Assembly: GCF_003334305.1 (NCBI RefSeq)
Contig: NZ_QOWS01000014.1
Length of the DNA: 64,000 bases
DNA from: Escherichia coli
GTDB lineage: Bacteria > Pseudomonadota > Gammaproteobacteria > Enterobacterales > Enterobacteriaceae
Direction: 5' to 3' (one strand)
The translations under genes were made by a program, and so were the position numbers. This document shows, in pieces, positions 8,012-17,262 of this stretch. The first letter of the stretch is position 1. Each line of letters opens with the position of its first letter. Below the pieces are notes generated by a model. The model was given only the letters and a program-made list of their open reading frames with translations. It had not been told where the DNA came from and made no database searches.

Positions 8012-10688
8012 CGAACCCTTACGTCCCGACCCCGATCGTCTGCTGGAACAAACTGCCGCGCCGCATCGGGGGAAGCTGAAAGTTTTCTTCGGTGCCTGTG
8101 CAGGCGTCGGGAAGACCTGGGCGATGCTGGCAGAAGCCCAGCGACTGCGGGCGCAAGGGCTGGATATTGTGGTTGGCGTGGTAGAAACCCATGGGCGGAA
8201 AGATACCGCCGCCATGCTTGAAGGGCTGGCTGTTCTGCCGCCCAAACGCCAGGCGTACCGTGGGCGGCATATCAGCGAGTTTGATCTCGATGCCGCCCTC
8301 GCCCGCCGTCCGGCGCTGATCTTAATGGACGAACTGGCGCACAGTAATGCGCCAGGTTCTCGTCATCCTAAACGCTGGCAGGATATCGAAGAACTGCTGG
8401 AAGCTGGCATTGATGTTTTCACAACCGTCAACGTTCAGCATCTGGAAAGTCTGAATGATGTGGTCAGCGGCGTCACCGGAATTCAGGTACGGGAAACCGT
8501 GCCCGATCCTTTTTTCGATGCCGCCGACGACGTAGTGCTGGTGGACTTGCCCCCGGACGATCTGCGCCAGCGGCTGAAAGAAGGCAAAGTCTATATTGCC
8601 GGGCAGGCGGAGCGCGCCATTGAACATTTTTTCCGCAAAGGCAATCTGATCGCCCTGCGTGAACTGGCACTGCGCCGTACTGCCGATCGCGTAGATGAGC
8701 AAATGCGCGCCTGGCGGGGGCATCCTGGTGAAGAGAAAGTGTGGCACACGCGCGACGCGATCCTTTTATGCATCGGGCATAACACCGGCAGTGAGAAACT
8801 GGTCCGCGCGGCGGCGCGGTTGGCCTCGCGCCTGGGTAGCGTCTGGCACGCGGTGTATGTTGAAACCCCTGCCCTGCATCGCTTACCGGAAAAAAAACGT
8901 CGGGCAATTCTCAGCGCCTTACGTCTGGCGCAGGAGCTGGGCGCGGAGACGGCTACACTTTCTGATCCAGCGGAAGAAAAAGCAGTAGTGCGTTATGCCC
9001 GTGAACATAATCTCGGCAAGATTATTCTCGGTCGCCCGGCCTCGCGCCGCTGGTGGCGTCGGGAAACGTTTGCTGACCGACTGGCGCGCATCGCCCCCGA
9101 TCTCGATCAGGTGCTGGTCGCGCTTGATGAACCACCCGCCCGCACGATTAACAACGCGCCGGATAGCCGCTCTTTTAAAGACAAGTGGCGGGTACAGATT
9201 CAGGGATGCGTGGTTGCCGCCGCGTTATGCGCCGTTATCACTTTAATTGCCATGCAGTGGCTGATGGCGTTTGATGCCGCCAACCTGGTGATGCTGTATC
9301 TGCTTGGCGTGGTGGTGGTGGCGCTATTTTATGGACGCTGGCCTTCGGTGGTTGCTACCGTCATTAATGTGGTGAGTTTCGATCTCTTTTTTATCGCCCC
9401 ACGCGGCACGCTCGCTGTCTCTGATGTGCAATATCTGCTGACCTTCGCGGTGATGTTAACCGTCGGGCTGGTGATCGGGAACCTTACTGCGGGTGTGCGT
9501 TATCAGGCGCGGGTAGCCCGTTACCGCGAGCAACGCACACGGCACTTATATGAAATGTCGAAAGCTCTGGCGGTGGGCCGCAGTCCGCAGGACATCGCCG
9601 CCACCAGCGAACAATTTATTGCCTCCACGTTTCATGCCCGCAGTCAGGTGTTGTTGCCCGATGACAACGGTAAATTGCAGCCGTTAACACATCCGCAAGG
9701 AATGACCCCGTGGGACGATGCCATCGCACAGTGGAGTTTTGATAAAGGCCTGCCTGCGGGTGCGGGCACCGACACGTTACCCGGTGTACCGTACCAGATT
9801 TTGCCGTTAAAAAGCGGTGAGAAAACCTACGGGCTGGTGGTGGTGGAACCAGGGAATCTGCGTCAGTTGATGATCCCGGAACAGCAGCGCCTGCTGGAGA
9901 CGTTTACGCTGTTAGTCGCCAATGCGTTTGAGCGGCTTACGCTGACCGCCAGTGAAGAACAGGCGCGGATGGCAAGCGAACGGGAACAGATCCGCAACGC
10001 TCTGCTGGCGGCGCTTTCGCATGATTTACGCACGCCGCTCACGGTGCTGTTCGGTCAGGCAGAAATCTTAACGCTCGATCTGGCAAGCGAAGGATCGCCT
10101 CACGCCCGCCAGGCCAGCGAGATTCGTCAGCACGTGCTGAACACTACCCGACTGGTGAATAATCTACTGGATATGGCGCGAATTCAGTCCGGCGGCTTTA
10201 ATTTGAAGAAAGAGTGGTTAACGCTGGAAGAAGTGGTCGGCAGCGCGCTGCAAATGCTGGAACCGGGTTTATCGTCGCCCATCAATCTTTCTCTGCCAGA
10301 ACCGCTGACCTTAATCCACGTTGACGGGCCACTCTTTGAACGGGTGCTGATTAATCTGCTGGAGAACGCGGTGAAATATGCGGGTGCGCAGGCCGAAATT
10401 GGTATCGATGCCCACGTTGAGGGCGAAAATCTACAACTGGATGTCTGGGATAACGGCCCCGGTCTTCCGCCAGGCCAGGAGCAGACGATATTTGATAAGT
10501 TTGCTCGCGGGAATAAAGAGTCGGCAGTACCGGGGGTAGGGCTTGGACTGGCAATTTGTCGGGCGATAGTGGATGTACACGGGGGCACTATTACCGCGTT
10601 CAACCGACCGGAAGGTGGTGCCTGTTTTCGTGTTACACTTCCCCAGCAAACTGCCCCTGAACTTGAAGAATTTCATGAGGATATGTGA
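8004..10688 (+). CDS. kdpD: Sensor histidine kinase KdpD, 894 aa
   Basis: ATG at 8004 gives [45 protein letters not shown] (P-loop); C-terminal HisKA/HATPase motifs ([23 protein letters not shown]). Start overlaps the kdpC stop. Confidence 0.96.
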
Positions 10689-11362
10689 CAAACGTTCTGA
10701 TTGTTGAAGATGAACAGGCTATTCGTCGCTTTCTGCGCACGGCGCTGGAGGGCGACGGGATGCGCGTCTATGAGGCCGAAACGCTGCAACGCGGCTTGCT
10801 GGAAGCGGCTACCCGTAAGCCAGATTTGATTATTCTCGATCTCGGCCTGCCCGATGGTGATGGGATTGAGTTTATCCGCGACCTGCGCCAGTGGAGCGCG
10901 GTGCCGGTGATTGTGCTTTCCGCACGCAGCGAAGAGAGCGACAAAATCGCCGCGCTGGATGCCGGAGCGGATGATTATCTGAGTAAGCCGTTTGGCATTG
11001 GCGAATTGCAGGCCCGTCTGCGCGTCGCTTTACGCCGCCACTCCGCCACCGCCGCGCCCGATCCGCTGGTGAAATTTTCCGATGTTACCGTCGATTTAGC
11101 CGCCCGCGTGATTCACCGGGGTGAGGAAGAGGTGCATCTCACGCCGATTGAGTTCCGCCTGCTGGCGGTGCTGCTGAATAATGCCGGGAAAGTGCTCACC
11201 CAGCGCCAGTTACTCAATCAGGTGTGGGGGCCAAACGCGGTCGAACACAGTCACTATTTGCGTATTTATATGGGACATCTGCGACAAAAACTGGAACAGG
11301 ATCCCGCTCGCCCCCGCCATTTCATTACTGAAACCGGTATTGGGTATCGGTTTATGCCATGA
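10685..11362 (+). CDS. kdpE: Response regulator KdpE (OmpR family), 225 aa
   Basis: ORF-track protein [32 protein letters not shown]...; receiver Asp in LIILDLGLPDGDG; winged-helix C-terminus; 4-bp overlap with kdpD. Confidence 0.96.
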   Translation: MTNVLIVEDEQAIRRFLRTALEGDGMRVYEAETLQRGLLEAATRKPDLIILDLGLPDGDGIEFIRDLRQWSAVPVIVLSARSEESDKIAALDAGADDYLSKPFGIGELQARLRVALRRHSATAAPDPLVKFSDVTVDLAARVIHRGEEEVHLTPIEFRLLAVLLNNAGKVLTQRQLLNQVWGPNAVEHSHYLRIYMGHLRQKLEQDPARPRHFITETGIGYRFMP

Positions 11363-11636
11363 ATGTTTATTCAATAAATGCGCTTAAATAATTATTAATT
11401 TATTATTAAACCTGCCAAAAATATTATTATTTGGCAGGTTTAATTTCTTAACGCAAATATAAAACACAAAATTACAACATTTAAATAACAAAACAGCATC
11501 TAATATGGCGCTATTCATAATTAATGATTTATTATTTGGGGTATGATCGTTTTTTGTTGATCTTCTTCACAGATTATAGCCATTTCATGGATAGAATAAC
11601 TCTACCTTCAACTGACACAGCAAGAGGTAAAGGTAA

Positions 11637-11741
11637 ATGGAAAATAATAACCGCTTAATGCCTCATATAAGGCGGACAACCCATATCATGAAGTTTGCCC
11701 ATCGTAATAGTTTTGACTTTCATTTCTTTAATGCCCGCTAG
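11637..11741 (+). CDS. speFL: speF leader arrest peptide SpeFL, 34 aa
   Basis: ATG 11637 to TAG 11739..11741 translates MENNNRLMPHIRRTTHIMKFAHRNSFDFHFFNAR, which I recognise as the ornithine-sensing leader peptide; 300 bp upstream of speF. Below the ORF-track size cutoff. Confidence 0.8.
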   Translation: MENNNRLMPHIRRTTHIMKFAHRNSFDFHFFNAR

Positions 11742-12051
11742 TCTTCTGACTAAAGGGCACCCCAACGTACAGGTCTCCCTGACTTTAAGCATTACAGGTT
11801 AATACCTGTATTCCTCGGTGCTCATATACTGCTAACCCTTTTAAACTCTAAATAATTCGAGTCGCAGCACTTGCAACTTGAGGTATGACGAGTATAGCCA
11901 GTTACCGGGCTGGTCTGGGTTATTGCATCTGCAAAAAGCAAACTACTGATTTATTTATCAGCGGTGGAGCTTTGCTTTTTTTCCGGCGTGATCGATTTCT
12001 CCTTTGAGAAATTGAGGACCTGCTATTACCTGAAATAAAGAGATGAACAAA

Positions 12052-14250
12052 ATGTCAGAATTAAAAATTGCCGTTAGTCGTTCTTGCCCTGATTGTTTTT
12101 CCACTCATCGTGCATGCGTGAATATAGACGAAAGTAATTATATTGACGTTGCCGCCATTATTTTATCAGTCAGTGATGTTGAACGTGGAAAACTCGATGA
12201 AATAGACGCTACTGGCTATGACATTCCTGTTTTTATTGCAACGGAAAATGAAGAACGTGTACCCGCAGAATATCTGCCACGTATTTCTGGTGTCTTCGAA
12301 CATTGCGAATCACGTAAAGAGTTTTATGGACGTCAGTTAGAAACCGCTGCCAGCCATTATGAAACGCAACTGCGCCCGCCCTTCTTCCGCGCACTGGTCG
12401 ATTATGTTAATCAGGGCAATAGTGCTTTTGACTGCCCTGGTCATCAGGGGGGTGAGTTTTTCCGTCGCCATCCGGCAGGCAATCAGTTCGTGGAATACTT
12501 TGGCGAAATGCTCTTCCGCTCTGACTTGTGTAATGCTGACGTAGCAATGGGCGATCTGCTGATTCATGAAGGTGCGCCATGTATTGCACAACAGCATGCG
12601 GCTAAAGTCTTTAATGCCGATAAAACCTATTTCGTTTTAAACGGTACTTCATCTTCTAATAAAGTGGTCTTAAACGCATTGCTGACGCCGGGCGATCTGG
12701 TGTTGTTTGACCGCAATAACCATAAATCTAACCACCACGGTGCGTTGCTACAGGCTGGCGCGACACCGGTTTATCTGGAAACCGCACGTAACCCGTATGG
12801 TTTTATCGGTGGTATTGACGCTCACTGTTTTGAAGAAAGTTACCTGCGTGAGCTGATTACAGAAGTTGCACCGCAGCGGGCAAAAGAGGCTCGTCCTTTC
12901 CGCCTCGCCGTTATTCAGCTAGGCACTTACGACGGTACGATTTATAACGCCCGTCAGGTGGTGGATAAAATTGGTCATCTGTGTGACTACATTCTGTTTG
13001 ACTCCGCATGGGTTGGCTATGAGCAATTTATCCCGATGATGGCTGACTGTTCGCCGCTGTTGCTGGATCTTAATGAGAACGATCCGGGTATTCTGGTTAC
13101 GCAATCCGTACATAAACAGCAGGCTGGTTTTTCTCAAACTTCACAAATCCATAAAAAAGACAGCCACATCAAAGGGCAACAGCGTTATGTACCGCACAAA
13201 CGCATGAACAACGCCTTTATGATGCACGCCTCCACCAGCCCGTTCTATCCGCTGTTTGCCGCACTGGATATCAACGCCAAAATGCATGAAGGTGTCAGCG
13301 GTCGTAATATGTGGATGGATTGTGTGGTAAATGGCATTAATGCCCGCAAACTGATCCTCGATAACTGTCAGCATATTCGTCCGTTCGTACCTGAACTGGT
13401 GGATGGTAAACCCTGGCAGTCGTATGAAACAGCGCAAATTGCGGTTGATCTGCGCTTCTTCCAGTTTGTACCAGGGGAACACTGGCATTCTTTTGAAGGC
13501 TATGCAGAGAATCAATACTTTGTCGATCCTTGCAAACTGTTGCTGACAACCCCAGGTATTGATGCACGTAACGGCGAATATGAAGCGTTCGGTGTACCCG
13601 CGACGATTCTTGCTAACTTCCTGCGCGAAAATGGCGTAGTGCCGGAAAAATGCGATCTTAACTCCATCCTCTTCCTGCTGACTCCGGCAGAAGATATGGC
13701 CAAGCTTCAGCAACTTGTTGCCCTGCTGGTACGCTTCGAAAAACTGCTTGAGTCCGACGCGCCATTAGCAGAAGTGCTGCCTTCCATCTACAAACAGCAT
13801 GAAGAGCGCTACGCCGGTTATACCCTGCGTCAGTTGTGTCAAGAAATGCATGATTTGTATGCCCGTCACAACGTGAAACAACTGCAAAAAGAGATGTTCC
13901 GTAAGGAACACTTCCCACGCGTAAGCATGAATCCGCAAGAAGCCAACTACGCCTATTTACGCGGTGAAGTGGAGCTGGTTCGTCTGCCGGATGCAGAAGG
14001 CCGTATCGCTGCCGAAGGTGCGCTTCCTTATCCTCCGGGTGTGCTGTGCGTTGTTCCGGGTGAAATCTGGGGTGGTGCTGTTCTGCGTTACTTCAGCGCT
14101 CTGGAAGAAGGGATCAACCTGTTGCCAGGTTTTGCACCGGAGCTTCAGGGTGTCTATATCGAAGAACATGATGGTCGTAAGCAAGTTTGGTGCTATGTCA
14201 TCAAGCCTCGTGATGCGCAAAGTACCCTGTTGAAAGGGGAAAAATTATGA
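12052..14250 (+). CDS. speF: Inducible ornithine decarboxylase SpeF, 732 aa
   Basis: Protein (MSELKIAVSRSCPDCFST...) is a fold-III PLP decarboxylase with the ornithine decarboxylase body; start chosen at the second ATG (12052) to match the K-12 length, with an in-frame ATG at 12043 as alternative. Confidence 0.93.
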   Translation: MSELKIAVSRSCPDCFSTHRACVNIDESNYIDVAAIILSVSDVERGKLDEIDATGYDIPVFIATENEERVPAEYLPRISGVFEHCESRKEFYGRQLETAASHYETQLRPPFFRALVDYVNQGNSAFDCPGHQGGEFFRRHPAGNQFVEYFGEMLFRSDLCNADVAMGDLLIHEGAPCIAQQHAAKVFNADKTYFVLNGTSSSNKVVLNALLTPGDLVLFDRNNHKSNHHGALLQAGATPVYLETARNPYGFIGGIDAHCFEESYLRELITEVAPQRAKEARPFRLAVIQLGTYDGTIYNARQVVDKIGHLCDYILFDSAWVGYEQFIPMMADCSPLLLDLNENDPGILVTQSVHKQQAGFSQTSQIHKKDSHIKGQQRYVPHKRMNNAFMMHASTSPFYPLFAALDINAKMHEGVSGRNMWMDCVVNGINARKLILDNCQHIRPFVPELVDGKPWQSYETAQIAVDLRFFQFVPGEHWHSFEGYAENQYFVDPCKLLLTTPGIDARNGEYEAFGVPATILANFLRENGVVPEKCDLNSILFLLTPAEDMAKLQQLVALLVRFEKLLESDAPLAEVLPSIYKQHEERYAGYTLRQLCQEMHDLYARHNVKQLQKEMFRKEHFPRVSMNPQEANYAYLRGEVELVRLPDAEGRIAAEGALPYPPGVLCVVPGEIWGGAVLRYFSALEEGINLLPGFAPELQGVYIEEHDGRKQVWCYVIKPRDAQSTLLKGEKL

Positions 14251-15566
14251 GTCAGGCTAAATCGAACAAAATGGGCGTCGTTCAGTTAACCATACTGACG
14301 ATGGTCAACATGATGGGCTCCGGTATCATCATGCTGCCGACAAAGCTTGCCGAAGTTGGGACAATTTCAATTATCTCCTGGCTGGTGACAGCCGTAGGCT
14401 CAATGGCACTGGCATGGGCATTCGCAAAATGCGGTATGTTCAGCCGTAAATCAGGTGGTATGGGCGGTTATGCCGAGTATGCTTTCGGTAAGTCCGGCAA
14501 TTTTATGGCGAACTACACCTACGGTGTCTCGCTGCTGATTGCTAACGTCGCGATTGCTATTTCGGCGGTTGGTTACGGCACCGAACTGCTCGGCGCGAGT
14601 TTGTCGCCAGTGCAGATTGGTCTTGCGACCATCGGAGTGCTGTGGATTTGTACCGTGGCTAACTTTGGTGGTGCGCGCATTACCGGGCAAATCAGTAGCA
14701 TTACTGTGTGGGGGGTCATTATTCCGGTGGTAGGCCTGTGCATTATCGGCTGGTTCTGGTTTAGCCCGACGCTTTACGTTGATTCCTGGAATCCGCATCA
14801 TGCACCGTTCTTCAGTGCAGTAGGTTCTTCCATCGCTATGACGCTGTGGGCTTTTCTCGGTCTGGAGTCTGCGTGTGCGAATACTGATGTAGTGGAAAAC
14901 CCGGAACGTAATGTGCCAATCGCGGTACTCGGCGGTACGTTAGGTGCGGCGGTGATTTATATCGTCTCCACCAACGTGATTGCAGGGATTGTGCCTAATA
15001 TGGAGCTGGCAAATTCAACGGCACCATTTGGCCTGGCCTTCGCACAGATGTTCACACCAGAAGTGGGTAAAGTCATTATGGCGCTGATGGTGATGTCCTG
15101 CTGCGGTTCGCTGCTTGGCTGGCAGTTCACCATTGCCCAGGTGTTTAAATCTTCATCTGATGAAGGCTACTTCCCTAAAATTTTCTCCCGTGTAACCAAA
15201 GTGGATGCACCGGTGCAGGGAATGTTGACCATTGTGATTATCCAGAGCGGGTTGGCGCTGATGACGATTAGCCCGTCGCTAAACAGTCAGTTCAACGTGC
15301 TGGTTAACCTGGCCGTGGTGACCAATATCATTCCGTATATTCTGTCAATGGCGGCATTAGTCATTATTCAGAAGGTCGCTAATGTGCCCCCCTCAAAAGC
15401 GAAAGTTGCAAACTTTGTTGCTTTTGTTGGCGCGATGTATAGCTTTTATGCGCTGTACTCATCCGGGGAAGAAGCCATGCTGTACGGTTCCATCGTGACC
15501 TTCCTTGGTTGGACACTGTATGGTCTGGTATCACCACGCTTTGAACTGAAAAATAAACACGGTTAA
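14247..15566 (+). CDS. potE: Putrescine-ornithine antiporter PotE, 439 aa
   Basis: ORF-track protein MSQAKSNKMGVVQLTILTMVNMMGSGIIMLPTKLAEVG... (APC-family transporter); 4-bp overlap with speF. Confidence 0.96.
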   Translation: MSQAKSNKMGVVQLTILTMVNMMGSGIIMLPTKLAEVGTISIISWLVTAVGSMALAWAFAKCGMFSRKSGGMGGYAEYAFGKSGNFMANYTYGVSLLIANVAIAISAVGYGTELLGASLSPVQIGLATIGVLWICTVANFGGARITGQISSITVWGVIIPVVGLCIIGWFWFSPTLYVDSWNPHHAPFFSAVGSSIAMTLWAFLGLESACANTDVVENPERNVPIAVLGGTLGAAVIYIVSTNVIAGIVPNMELANSTAPFGLAFAQMFTPEVGKVIMALMVMSCCGSLLGWQFTIAQVFKSSSDEGYFPKIFSRVTKVDAPVQGMLTIVIIQSGLALMTISPSLNSQFNVLVNLAVVTNIIPYILSMAALVIIQKVANVPPSKAKVANFVAFVGAMYSFYALYSSGEEAMLYGSIVTFLGWTLYGLVSPRFELKNKHG

Positions 15567-15577
15567 AAAAGCAAAGT

Positions 15578-15610
15578 AAAAAAGGGCGATCTTGCGACCG
15601 CCCTTTTTTT
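15578..15610. terminator. Bidirectional intrinsic terminator between convergent potE and pgm
   Basis: AAAAAAGGGCGATCTTGCGACCGCCCTTTTTTT: GC-rich stem with an A-tract on one side and a T-tract on the other, in the 55-bp gap between the two stop codons. Confidence 0.75.
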
Positions 15611-15621
15611 ATTAAATGTGT

Positions 15622-17262
15622 TTACGCGTTTTTCAGAACTTCGCTAACAATCTCAACCGCTTCTTTCTCAATCTGCTTGCGATGTTCTTCACCGAGGAAG
15701 CTTTCGCAGTAGATCTTATATGCGTCTTCCGTGCCTGACGGACGCGCGGCGAACCAGCCGTTGTCGGTCATCACTTTCAGACCGCCGATAGAAGCACCAT
15801 TGCCCGGTGCCGCCGTCAGGCGCGCGGTGATCGGGTCGCCTGCAAGGGTGCTGGCGCTCACCATTTCCGGAGACAGCTTAGACAGCGCCGCTTTTTGTGC
15901 GGAAGTCGCGGCTGCCTGCAAACGGTTGTAGCTCGGCGCACCAAAGCGTTTTGCCAGTTCGTTGTAGTGTTCCTGCGGGTTCTTACCGGTGACAGCGGTG
16001 ATTTCCGCCGCCAGCAGACACATAATGATGCCGTCTTTGTCGGTGGACCACGGCGTGCCGTCGAAACGCAGGAAGGAAGCCCCTGCGCTCTCTTCGCCGC
16101 CAAAGCCGAAGCTGCCGTCGAACAGACCATCAACAAACCATTTGAAACCTACCGGGACTTCTACCAGCTTACGGCCCAAGTCATTGACCACACGGTCGAT
16201 CATCGCAGAAGAAACCAGCGTTTTACCGACAGCAACATCTTTGCCCCACTGCGGACGATGCTGGAACAGGTAGTTGATCGCCACCGCCAGGTAGTGGTTC
16301 GGATTCATCAAACCTGCCGGAGTGACGATACCGTGACGGTCATAATCCGGGTCGTTAGCAAACGCCAGATCGAACTTATCACGCAGTGCCAGCAGGCCCG
16401 CCATCGCACACTCGGAGGAGCAGTCCATACGGATCGCGCCGTCTTTATCAAGGTGCATAAAGCGGAAGGTTTGATCGACCTGATCGTTAACGATGGTCAG
16501 GTTGAGGTTGTAATACTCGCCAATACGCTTCCAGTATTCGATACCGGAACCGCCCAGCGGATCAACGCCCAGCGTCAGGCCCGCTTTCTGAATTGCCGCC
16601 ATATCAACGATATCGGCCAGACCTTCCACAAACGGCTGCACCAGATCCTGCTCTTTTACATGACCGGATGCCATCGCTTCGTCGAGGGAGATACGCTTCA
16701 CGCCTTTCAGGCCATCGGCCATCAGTGCGTTGGCCCTGTCTTCCACCACTTTGGTGACGTTGGTATCAGCCGGGCCACCATTTGGCGGGTTGTACTTGAT
16801 ACCACCATCTTCCGGCGGGTTATGGGACGGTGTAATCACGATACCGTCTGCCAGCGGGCCACCTTTTTTATTGTGAACCAGGATGGCATTGGAAATGGCA
16901 GGTGTCGGAGTGAAGCCATTGTTTTCCTGCACAATGACATCAACGCCGTTCGCTGCCAGCACTTCCAGTACGGAAATGAACGCAGGCTCGGACAGGGCGT
17001 GAGTATCTTTACCCACATAGCAAGGGCCAGTGATGCCGTTTTTCGCACGTTCTTCAGCAATTGCCTGAGCGATCGCCAGAATGTGCGGCTCGTTAAAGCT
17101 GTGGCGCGCTGCACTGCCACGGTGACCGGAAGTACCGAATTTCACCGCGTGCTCCGCATTCCCTGCTTCTGGTTTCAGTACATAATATTGCGCCGTCAGT
17201 TGGGCGACGTTAATCAAATCACTCTGTTGTGCAGGTTGGCCTGCACGATTGTGGATTGCCAT
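15622..17262 (-). CDS. pgm: Phosphoglucomutase, 546 aa
   Basis: Internal start of ORF 15622..17313 gives [51 protein letters not shown] (phosphoserine motif TSGHRG). Confidence 0.96.

What the first reader, a model, noticed from the sequence alone, without database searches (positions are those of the whole stretch)
15567..15621. potE and pgm are separated by only 55 bp with a shared bidirectional terminator; the K-12 ybfP/ybfG segment appears absent
Seen: stop-to-stop distance is 55 bp, fully occupied by a hairpin flanked by A6/T7. From memory, K-12 has roughly 1.5 kb here carrying ybfP and ybfG, so this strain has the compact (probably ancestral) state and the K-12 genes would be an insertion. 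Useful as a strain marker.
Basis: partly seen in the sequence, partly recalled or inferred. Interest (0 to 1): 0.25.

Follow-up and report, generated by a model that had tools for sequence, protein, structure and literature searches.

The report
Compact potE–pgm junction, shared terminator
In this E. coli strain the convergent genes potE and pgm are 55 bp apart and share one terminator hairpin, which is the commonest layout in E. coli and its relatives; K-12 carries a derived 1.75-kb filler (ybfI', ybfG', ybfP, REP elements) here, so the finding is correct but ordinary.

Summary
potE (14247-15566, +) and pgm (15622-17262, -) are separated stop-to-stop by 55 bp (15567-15621). That spacer holds one A6-hairpin-T7 element at 15578-15610.

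MG1655 has 1,747 bp at this position. It carries ybfP, the ybfG pseudogene, ybfI' (a 3' relic of kdpE), REP/BIME elements and a second hairpin.

Among 5,426 complete E. coli genomes:
- About 59% have the compact junction.
- 34% have the K-12-type filler.
- 4.5% lack speFL-speF-potE altogether (kdpE-ybfP-pgm).
- Two genomes have both hairpins plus a BIME and no genes.

The outgroups support the compact layout as ancestral. In 55 species of Enterobacteriaceae with potE and pgm convergent, including E. albertii (57-bp spacer, one hairpin), none has ybfG or ybfP here. The median spacer is 115 bp, and 32 of 55 carry an A-tract/hairpin/T-tract element. YbfP was found only in this E. coli locus. The closest YbfG relatives outside this E. 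coli locus are about 57% identical.

One caveat remains. The K-12 filler is bounded by a 15-bp direct repeat formed by the left arms of its two hairpins, so a deletion between them would give exactly this junction. Flanking haplotypes are also shuffled between the two states. A secondary deletion is therefore not excluded, though it is less likely.

Terminator function is predicted, not measured. Low novelty; usable as a strain marker.

The parts
14247..15566 (+). potE (putrescine-ornithine antiporter), 439 aa; stop TAA at 15564-15566
   Evidence: ORF list. Annotation of the 100% identical genome NZ_CP025916.1.
15567..15621 (.). 55-bp stop-to-stop spacer between the convergent genes potE and pgm (compact allele, 'S1')
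   Evidence: Sequence. The same single-piece junction is seen in about 3,195 of 5,426 complete E. coli genomes.
15578..15610 (.). A6 - GGGCGATC - TTGC - GACCGCCC - T7: predicted intrinsic terminator readable on both strands ('G-type' hairpin)
   Evidence: Folds and terminator scan. It is 100% identical to the pgm-proximal hairpin of K-12. Equivalent A-tract/hairpin/T-tract elements occur in 32 of 55 outgroup loci.
15576..15590 (+). GTAAAAAAGGGCGAT: the 15 bp present twice in K-12, as the left arms of its two hairpins, bounding the extra segment. The break in collinearity between the window and K-12 lies inside this stretch.
   Evidence: Anchored left and right comparisons. K-12-type genomes align to the window only from 15576 onward. 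Compact genomes align to K-12 potE plus 24 nt of spacer.
15622..17262 (-). pgm (phosphoglucomutase), 546 aa; stop codon at 15622-15624
   Evidence: ORF list and annotation.
11219..11357 (+). 3' end of the resident kdpE. K-12's ybfI' pseudogene, which lies in the potE-pgm filler, is a ~90% identical copy of this stretch. This is context only, not part of the junction.
   Evidence: blastn of the K-12 spacer against the window; tblastn.

Best explanation
The window carries the common compact allele of the potE/pgm convergent junction. A single A6-hairpin-T7 intrinsic terminator sits in a 55-bp spacer and is predicted to end both transcripts: speFL-speF-potE from the + strand and seqA-pgm from the - strand.

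Read in the pgm direction, the hairpin is an 8-bp stem (one G.U pair) with a GCAA (GNRA) tetraloop followed by U6. Read in the potE direction, it has an A.C mismatch and is followed by U7. It is therefore primarily the pgm terminator, with a weaker face serving potE.

This compact organisation is the ancestral one for Escherichia and for Enterobacteriaceae. The K-12-type allele is a derived, old composite. It runs: a separate potE-side hairpin of the E. albertii type, a REP-like stretch, a 3' relic of kdpE (ybfI'), ybfG (DUF2625), ybfP (an E. coli-only orphan lipoprotein), a BIME, and then the same pgm hairpin. That allele most likely arose by recombination between a speF-potE-bearing allele and a kdpE-(ybfG)-ybfP-pgm allele that lacks speF-potE. 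The latter still exists in 4.5% of genomes.

Shown: the anatomy, the population frequencies, the outgroup states and the restricted distribution of ybfG and ybfP. Inferred: terminator activity, the polarity, and the route by which the K-12 allele formed.
For: Anatomy and stability of the hairpin.

K-12 has a 1,747-bp spacer with ybfP, ybfG' and ybfI'.

Population counts in 5,426 complete E. coli genomes:
- Compact or near-compact: 3,197. All 18 rows sampled across the ranking were single-piece alignments of 1,055-1,056 bp.
- Two-hairpin plus BIME state: 2.
- K-12-type: 1,851 by the spacer query and 1,842 by the potE-ybfI junction query.
- kdpE-ybfP-pgm without speF-potE: 246.

Outgroups: 55 GTDB species have potE and pgm convergent in kdpE-speF-potE/pgm-seqA synteny. 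None gives a YbfG or YbfP tblastn hit. The median spacer is 115 bp and 34 of 55 are 150 bp or shorter. E. albertii has 57 bp with one hairpin, and 32 of 55 have an A-tract/hairpin/T-tract element.

The tail of the G hairpin, CCCTTTTTCTTA, recurs in Kluyvera and Atlantibacter.

Sampled compact E. coli genomes all carry the G-type hairpin. They include BEN2908 (phylogroup B2, from my own knowledge) and strain 472. O157:H7 genomes (phylogroup E, from my own knowledge) also show the compact pattern, aligning to K-12 potE plus 24 nt of spacer only and lacking ybfP/ybfG.

YbfG: hits of 88% identity or more are named E. coli or, where the contig was read, sit in this same locus beside E. coli-like pgm and seqA; the next best hits are about 57%. 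YbfP: only 28 clusters in 5.8 billion proteins; those named are E. coli and the two divergent ones checked lie in this locus. Published pan-genome work lists ybfP as enriched in phylogroup A (PMC5422975).

The 12 nt between the potE stop and the hairpin in the window match other compact strains (strain 472). They differ from K-12 at 2 positions, although the last ~300 bp of potE are identical to K-12. This argues against a recent deletion from a K-12-like allele.
Against: The K-12 filler is bounded by the 15-bp direct repeat GTAAAAAAGGGCGAT, so a deletion between the copies would give exactly the window's junction.

The window's hairpin and its right flank (46 bp) are 100% identical to K-12's pgm-side copy. 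The adjacent ~140 bp of pgm and ~300 bp of potE are also identical to K-12.

A compact strain (MFDS1019527) and a two-hairpin strain (N96) share a 99.9-100% identical kdpE-speF-potE haplotype. States have therefore interconverted or been shuffled by recombination.

A divergent Escherichia lineage (strain E69) has both hairpins, so a two-hairpin ancestor of E. coli is not excluded.

Only one non-coli Escherichia species (E. albertii) and one divergent lineage labelled E. coli (E69) were sampled. No transcript 3'-end data were examined.
Confidence: 0.78

Rival explanations
1. Secondary compaction. The ancestor of this lineage, or of E. coli as a whole, had two hairpins (P on the potE side, G on the pgm side), with or without the ybfI'-ybfG-ybfP block. 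The 55-bp junction was then produced by deletion, or by homology-facilitated recombination, between the 15-bp repeated left arms. The compact look would then be derived rather than primitive.
For: The junction falls exactly within the 15-bp repeat. The window combines a potE-side left flank with the pgm-side (G) loop and right arm, which is what such a deletion predicts. Window and K-12 are identical over the potE-proximal ~300 bp and the pgm-proximal ~190 bp. MFDS1019527 (compact) and N96 (two hairpins) share the same kdpE-speF-potE haplotype. E69, a divergent Escherichia lineage, and 2 E. coli genomes have P+BIME+G.
Against: Every sampled compact E. coli genome has the same G-type junction, which fits one old state better than many independent deletions. 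E. albertii and most genera have a single hairpin. The window's 12-nt left flank is of the compact type and differs from K-12 at 2 of 12 positions, despite identical potE sequence upstream. MFDS1019527 and N96 differ in pgm from the first 50 bp onward, so a recombination breakpoint accompanies their difference in state, not a simple deletion. Two-hairpin alleles without genes are very rare, 2 of 5,426.
Confidence: 0.17
2. The hairpin terminates only pgm. potE transcription would end by Rho or read through into antisense pgm, so the element is not truly shared.
For: In the potE direction the stem has an A.C mismatch and only -9.4 kcal/mol, against -14.4 kcal/mol in the pgm direction. The consensus scan reported it only on the - strand. 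The + strand fold has a z-score of only -2.3. Alleles with room to spare keep a separate potE-side hairpin that is better in the potE direction (K-12 P: -11.9 against -10.7 kcal/mol).
Against: A 5-bp G/C stem plus 2 further pairs, followed directly by U7, is within the range of working intrinsic terminators (general knowledge). No other hairpin fits in the 55 bp. A-tract/hairpin/T-tract elements at this junction recur in 32 of 55 species despite sequence turnover of the stem. Bidirectional terminators between convergent genes are a documented class in E. coli (general knowledge; literature located).
Confidence: 0.2

Closest known systems
pgm-proximal hairpin of E. coli K-12 MG1655 (between ybfP and pgm)
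   Same: The sequence is 100% identical over 46 bp (window 15576-15621), including A6, stem, loop, T7 and the 11 nt up to the pgm stop.
   Different: In K-12 it faces ybfP and a BIME rather than potE. K-12 potE has its own hairpin 1.7 kb away (AAAAAAGGGCGATtgaatgATCGCCCTTTctg).
potE-pgm spacer of Escherichia albertii NBRC 107761
   Same: The spacer is 57 bp with one A6-hairpin-T6 element between the same convergent genes. The left arm GGGCGAT and the flanking A and T tracts are shared.
   Different: The loop and inner stem are of the 'P' type (CGAATGAT against CTTGCGAC). The hairpin is symmetric, -14.2 kcal/mol in both directions.
Bidirectional intrinsic terminators between convergent genes in E. 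coli (genome-wide 3'-end mapping literature; my recollection is Ju, Li & Liu 2019, not read here)
   Same: A palindromic G/C stem is flanked by an A-tract upstream and a T-tract downstream in a short spacer between convergent genes.
   Different: No 3'-end data for this particular element were examined. The stem is asymmetric because of an A.C / G.U position.
ybfP/ybfG accessory segment of phylogroup A E. coli
   Same: ybfP is reported as enriched in phylogroup A (PMC5422975).
   Different: The window has the 'absent' allele.

Membership tests
Intrinsic (Rho-independent) terminator | G/C-rich stem-loop immediately followed by a U-tract on the transcribed strand | tested here: met
   On the - strand: an 8-bp stem (one G.U), GCAA loop, then U6; -14.4 kcal/mol for the stem alone. 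On the + strand: 5+2 bp with an A.C mismatch, then U7; -9.4 kcal/mol.
Intrinsic (Rho-independent) terminator | Located just downstream of a stop codon at the end of a transcription unit | tested here: met
   The element lies 11 nt after the potE stop and 11 nt after the pgm stop.
Intrinsic (Rho-independent) terminator | Transcript 3' ends map to the U-tract | not testable with these tools
   No RNA 3'-end data are available here.
Bidirectional terminator | A-tract 5' and T-tract 3' of one palindromic stem, between convergent genes | tested here: met
   A6 at 15578-15583 and T7 at 15604-15610; potE is on + and pgm on -. The same architecture occurs in 32 of 55 outgroup loci.
Bidirectional terminator | Comparable hairpin strength in both reading directions | tested here: inconclusive
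   The two directions give -14.4 and -9.4 kcal/mol. Both are plausible terminators but they are unequal.
REP/BIME element | REP consensus palindrome (GCCGGATGCGGCG...-type) in the spacer | tested here: not met
   The window spacer has none. The K-12, E69, N96 and S4 alleles do.
Insertion sequence / transposon (considered for the K-12 extra segment) | Transposase gene, terminal inverted repeats and a target-site duplication | tested here: not met
   The K-12 segment has no transposase. The 15-bp direct repeat is formed by the left arms of two terminator hairpins, and a further 43-bp repeat (81% identical) is REP-flanking sequence. IS1 and IS200C occur only in rare secondary variants.
Rfam RNA families | Score at or above the family gathering threshold | tested here: not met
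   The best hit was STnc320 at 25.8 bits against a gathering score of 50. All hits are generic matches to a terminator hairpin.
Anti-phage defence system (considered for ybfG/ybfP) | Match to a PADLOC model | tested here: not met
   No family matched either protein. YbfG matches only DUF2625 / PRK11408, and YbfP matches no NCBIfam family.

The most novel reading that the evidence does not exclude
The potE-pgm junction could be an old, multi-allelic recombination hotspot. In this reading the paired terminator arms (15 bp) and the REP-flank repeats (43 bp) act as recurrent crossover points, moving the ybfI'-ybfG-ybfP cassette, and even the whole speFL-speF-potE operon, in and out of different haplotypes. 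The K-12 allele would then have been built by re-acquisition of speF-potE into a lineage that had lost it, with ybfI' as the scar. Several alleles would have been maintained since about the origin of the species.
Probability: 0.2. Interest if true: 0.35.

Novelty: already known. Interest (0 to 1): 0.13.

Why it matters
Mostly as bookkeeping.

- It shows that K-12 is the minority, derived state at this junction.
- It gives a simple four-state structural marker: compact 59%, K-12-type 34%, speF-potE-less 4.5%, and rare others.
- It warns that K-12-based operon and terminator maps do not transfer to most E. coli. In most strains potE and pgm must share one asymmetric hairpin.

The surrounding kdpE-speF-potE region is unusually polymorphic. 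Inducible ornithine decarboxylase and its antiporter are missing from about 1 in 20 complete genomes, which may matter for studies of acid-stress response or putrescine physiology.

Tried and rejected
- Rfam scan of 15300-15900: only sub-threshold hits to sRNA models through their terminator hairpins. No RNA gene.
- PADLOC and NCBIfam on YbfG and YbfP: no defence or functional assignment.
- Literature search for ybfG/ybfP/potE: only pan-genome mentions of ybfP. No paper on this junction was found.
- Looked for ybfG/ybfP homologues at this site in other species. Partial YbfG variants of 88-89% identity and the YbfP variants of 63% and 71% all turned out to sit in this same locus, next to pgm and seqA sequences 94.6-99.8% identical to the window's. 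No donor species was identified.
- Looked for a kdpE-ybfG-ybfP-pgm allele without potE, the hypothetical intermediate. The potE-ybfI junction count (1,842) nearly equals the K-12-spacer count (1,851), so no sizeable group of that kind exists.
- Tested whether ybfI' is closest to the kdpE of the speF-potE-less allele. It is not: 88.7% against about 90% to other kdpE alleles, so the test is uninformative.
The repeats were taken from blastn and direct comparison instead.
- The single genome-contig scan did not return E. fergusonii, E. marmotae, E. ruysiae or the main E. coli representative. Those outgroups remain unsampled.

Full report
**1. The observation**

The window is E. coli. A 1,055-bp stretch across the site is 100% identical to several complete genomes, for example NZ_CP025916.1 (strain 120899), where the flanking genes are annotated potE and pgm.

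potE runs 14247-15566 on the + strand and pgm runs 15622-17262 on the - strand. The stop-to-stop spacer is 15567-15621, 55 bp.

The spacer contains A6 (15578-15583), GGGCGATC, loop TTGC, GACCGCCC and T7 (15604-15610). That is 33 of the 55 bp, with 11 nt on each side.

The element folds at -21.5 kcal/mol on the - strand (z -4.1; 0 of 200 shuffles fold as well) and -19.6 kcal/mol on the + strand (z -2.3). The pattern scan calls it a terminator on the - strand. No Rfam family reaches threshold.

**2. Comparison with K-12**

In MG1655 the same two stop codons are 1,747 bp apart. The interval is annotated with ybfP (lipoprotein), ybfG (pseudogene, DUF2625) and ybfI (pseudogene).

Reading the K-12 interval gives this order:
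- potE stop.
- Hairpin 'P' (AAAAAAGGGCGATtgaatgATCGCCCTTTctg).
- A REP-like stretch.
- ybfI', a ~90% identical copy of the last ~145 bp of kdpE.
- ybfG'.
- ybfP, on the opposite strand.
- A ~43-bp copy (81% identical) of the REP-flanking stretch, then a BIME (a pair of REP elements).
- Hairpin 'G', then the pgm stop.

Hairpin G and everything to its right (46 bp) is 100% identical to the window. The two K-12 hairpins share the 15-bp left arm GTAAAAAAGGGCGAT. Collinearity between the window and K-12 breaks inside that repeat.

ybfG is intact (216 aa) in other strains, so the K-12 nonsense codon is specific to the K-12 lineage.

**3. Population frequencies in 5,426 complete E. coli genomes**

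| State | Organisation | Genomes | Evidence |
|---|---|---|---|
| S1, compact | potE - 55/56 bp with one G hairpin - pgm | about 3,195 (59%) | 3,197 genomes cover at least 80% of a junction-spanning query in one place, minus the 2 S2 genomes |
| S2 | P hairpin + BIME + G hairpin, no genes (222 bp) | 2 | (strains N96 and R32_14_1F) |
| S3, K-12-type | P + ybfI' + ybfG + ybfP + BIME + G | 1,842-1,851 (34%) | spacer query; potE-ybfI junction query |
| S4 | kdpE-BIME-ybfP-BIME-G-pgm; no speFL, speF, potE or ybfG | 246 (4.5%) | |
| Other | includes IS200C and IS1 variants | about 130 | |

All 18 rows sampled across the ranking were single-piece alignments of 1,055-1,056 bp. The count could still include a few genomes with short insertions joined by the tool.

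Genomes of the compact type have no ybfP or ybfG anywhere. Their best match to the K-12 filler is a REP element elsewhere on the chromosome.

Most compact strains have a 56-bp spacer with a T5CTT tail. The window's T7 variant equals K-12's G copy.

**4. Outgroups**

One scan of GTDB species representatives with PotE returned 80 loci. In 55 of them potE and pgm are convergent neighbours in conserved kdpE-speF-potE / pgm-seqA synteny. They include E. albertii, Salmonella, Citrobacter, Enterobacter, Kluyvera, Raoultella, Atlantibacter and Cedecea.

- None has a tblastn match to YbfG or YbfP.
- Spacer lengths have a median of 115 bp, and 34 of 55 are 150 bp or shorter.
- 32 of 55 carry an A-tract/hairpin/T-tract element whose stem sequence turns over between genera (GGGCGAT, GGAGCC, GGGAGCC, GGCGCC, CGGCAACC) while the architecture persists.
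- E. albertii has a 57-bp spacer with one symmetric hairpin of the P type.
- The tail of the G hairpin in most E. coli (CCCTTTTTCTTA) recurs in Kluyvera and Atlantibacter.

On the two extra genes:
- YbfG relatives of 88% identity or more are named E. coli or, where the contig was read, lie in this same locus next to E. coli-like pgm and seqA. The next best are about 57% identical, from Pantoea, Erwinia, Kosakonia and others.
- YbfP has only 28 clusters in 5.8 billion proteins. Those named are E. coli, and the two divergent ones checked lie in this locus.
- A published pan-genome study lists ybfP as enriched in phylogroup A (PMC5422975).

The compact organisation is therefore ancestral, and ybfG/ybfP are lineage-restricted additions.

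**5. Why the polarity is not completely closed**

- A deletion between the 15-bp repeated arms of P and G would give exactly the window's junction.
- The window and strain 472 (both compact) are identical or nearly identical to K-12 (expanded) over the last ~300 bp of potE. The window is also identical to K-12 over the first ~140 bp of pgm.
- MFDS1019527 (compact) and N96 (S2) are 99.9-100% identical across kdpE-speF-potE.
- A divergent Escherichia lineage (strain E69; potE 88% and pgm 95.7% identical to the window) has the S2 state.

Structural state and flanking haplotype have therefore been reshuffled.

Against a recent deletion in the window's lineage:
- The 12 nt between the potE stop and the hairpin match other compact strains and differ from K-12 at 2 positions.
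- MFDS1019527 and N96 differ in pgm from the first 50 bp onward, so a recombination breakpoint accompanies their change of state.
- All sampled compact strains share the G-type junction.

I put secondary compaction at about 0.17.

**6. How the K-12 allele probably arose (inference)**

ybfI' is a scar of a kdpE 3' end lying downstream of potE. An allele still exists in which kdpE is followed directly by ybfP and pgm, without speF-potE. K-12's potE-side hairpin is of the E. albertii (P) type.

The simplest reading is a recombination that joined a speFL-speF-potE-P segment to a kdpE-(ybfG)-ybfP-BIME-G-pgm allele inside kdpE. The event is old:
- ybfI' is ~10% diverged from any E. coli kdpE.
- ybfP alleles are 87-100% identical in nucleotides.
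- speF of K-type strains forms its own clade, 91-94% identical to compact-type speF.

I could not find the postulated kdpE-ybfG-ybfP intermediate.

**7. Mechanism of the element itself (predicted)**

In the pgm direction the stem is 8 bp (one G.U) with a GCAA tetraloop and a U6 tail, -14.4 kcal/mol. In the potE direction an A.C mismatch interrupts the stem, -9.4 kcal/mol, followed by U7.

In two-hairpin alleles the potE-side hairpin is better in the potE direction (-11.9 against -10.7 kcal/mol). The E. albertii hairpin is symmetric (-14.2 kcal/mol both ways).

In compact E. coli the element is thus mainly the pgm terminator, with a weaker face serving potE. Whether potE transcripts actually stop there needs 3'-end mapping. 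Bidirectional terminators between convergent genes are a recognised class in E. coli (general knowledge; literature located).

**8. Verdict**

The finding is real and correctly interpreted, but ordinary. It is a known accessory-gene presence/absence difference at a convergent junction with a standard intrinsic terminator, and it works as a structural strain marker.

The modestly interesting by-products are:
- The multi-allelic, deeply diverged kdpE-speF-potE neighbourhood.
- The 4.5% of complete genomes that lack the inducible ornithine decarboxylase/antiporter operon.

Noticed in passing
L003 4467-7595 (NZ_CP145636.1); L098; corresponds to window ~11362-15621: 246 of 5,426 complete E. coli genomes have kdpE followed by a BIME, ybfP, a second BIME and pgm. 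The whole speFL-speF-potE operon and ybfG are absent from them.
   Followed up: partly
window 10685-15566 (kdpE, speF, potE) compared with L001, L086, L092-L096: Allelic divergence inside E. coli is unusually deep here: speF down to 91.4% nucleotide identity, potE 92.7%, kdpE 93.2%. By contrast pgm is at least 96.5% and seqA at least 99.5%. K-type strains carry a distinct speF clade, and K-12's potE looks like a recombinant patch of compact-type sequence.
   Followed up: partly
L001 6722-6871 (K-12 ybfI) compared with window 11219-11357: The K-12 pseudogene ybfI is a ~90% identical copy of the last ~145 bp of kdpE, sitting downstream of potE. It looks like a rearrangement scar.
   Followed up: yes
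L087 2540-3034 (ybfP): YbfP appears to be an orphan of this E. coli locus. Only 28 protein clusters match it in 5.8 billion; those named are E. coli and the two divergent ones checked lie in this locus. It matches no NCBIfam or PADLOC family. Its alleles range from 87 to 100% nucleotide identity.
   Followed up: yes
L097 5996-6355 (plasmid NZ_CP182310.1): A 3' fragment of potE (~90% identical) sits between IS26 copies, next to a class 1 integron (dfrA14), on a 78-kb resistance plasmid. Eleven such plasmid matches were counted.
   Followed up: partly
L043 (CACSKA010000002.1, labelled Chryseobacterium sp. 18061): A record labelled Chryseobacterium carries an Enterobacter-type kdpE-speF-potE-pgm-seqA locus (PotE 92% identical). 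The assembly is probably mislabelled or contaminated.
   Followed up: no
L004 4546-5004; L005 3248-3945: Rare secondary variants exist. One has IS200C inserted between the BIME and the pgm hairpin (strain GPEC464). Another has an IS1-associated deletion that removed most of speF, all of potE and ybfG (strain CUVM53).
   Followed up: partly
window ~11524-11658 (by offset from L002 2458-2592), overlapping the start of speFL at 11637-11741: RefSeq annotates a 44-aa 'hypothetical protein' here, called 'TonB-dependent receptor' in some genomes. It overlaps the start of the speFL leader peptide and is probably an annotation artefact.
   Followed up: no
window 12043-12052: The mechanical ORF for speF starts at ATG 12043 (735 aa). 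RefSeq annotates the start at 12052 (732 aa).
   Followed up: no
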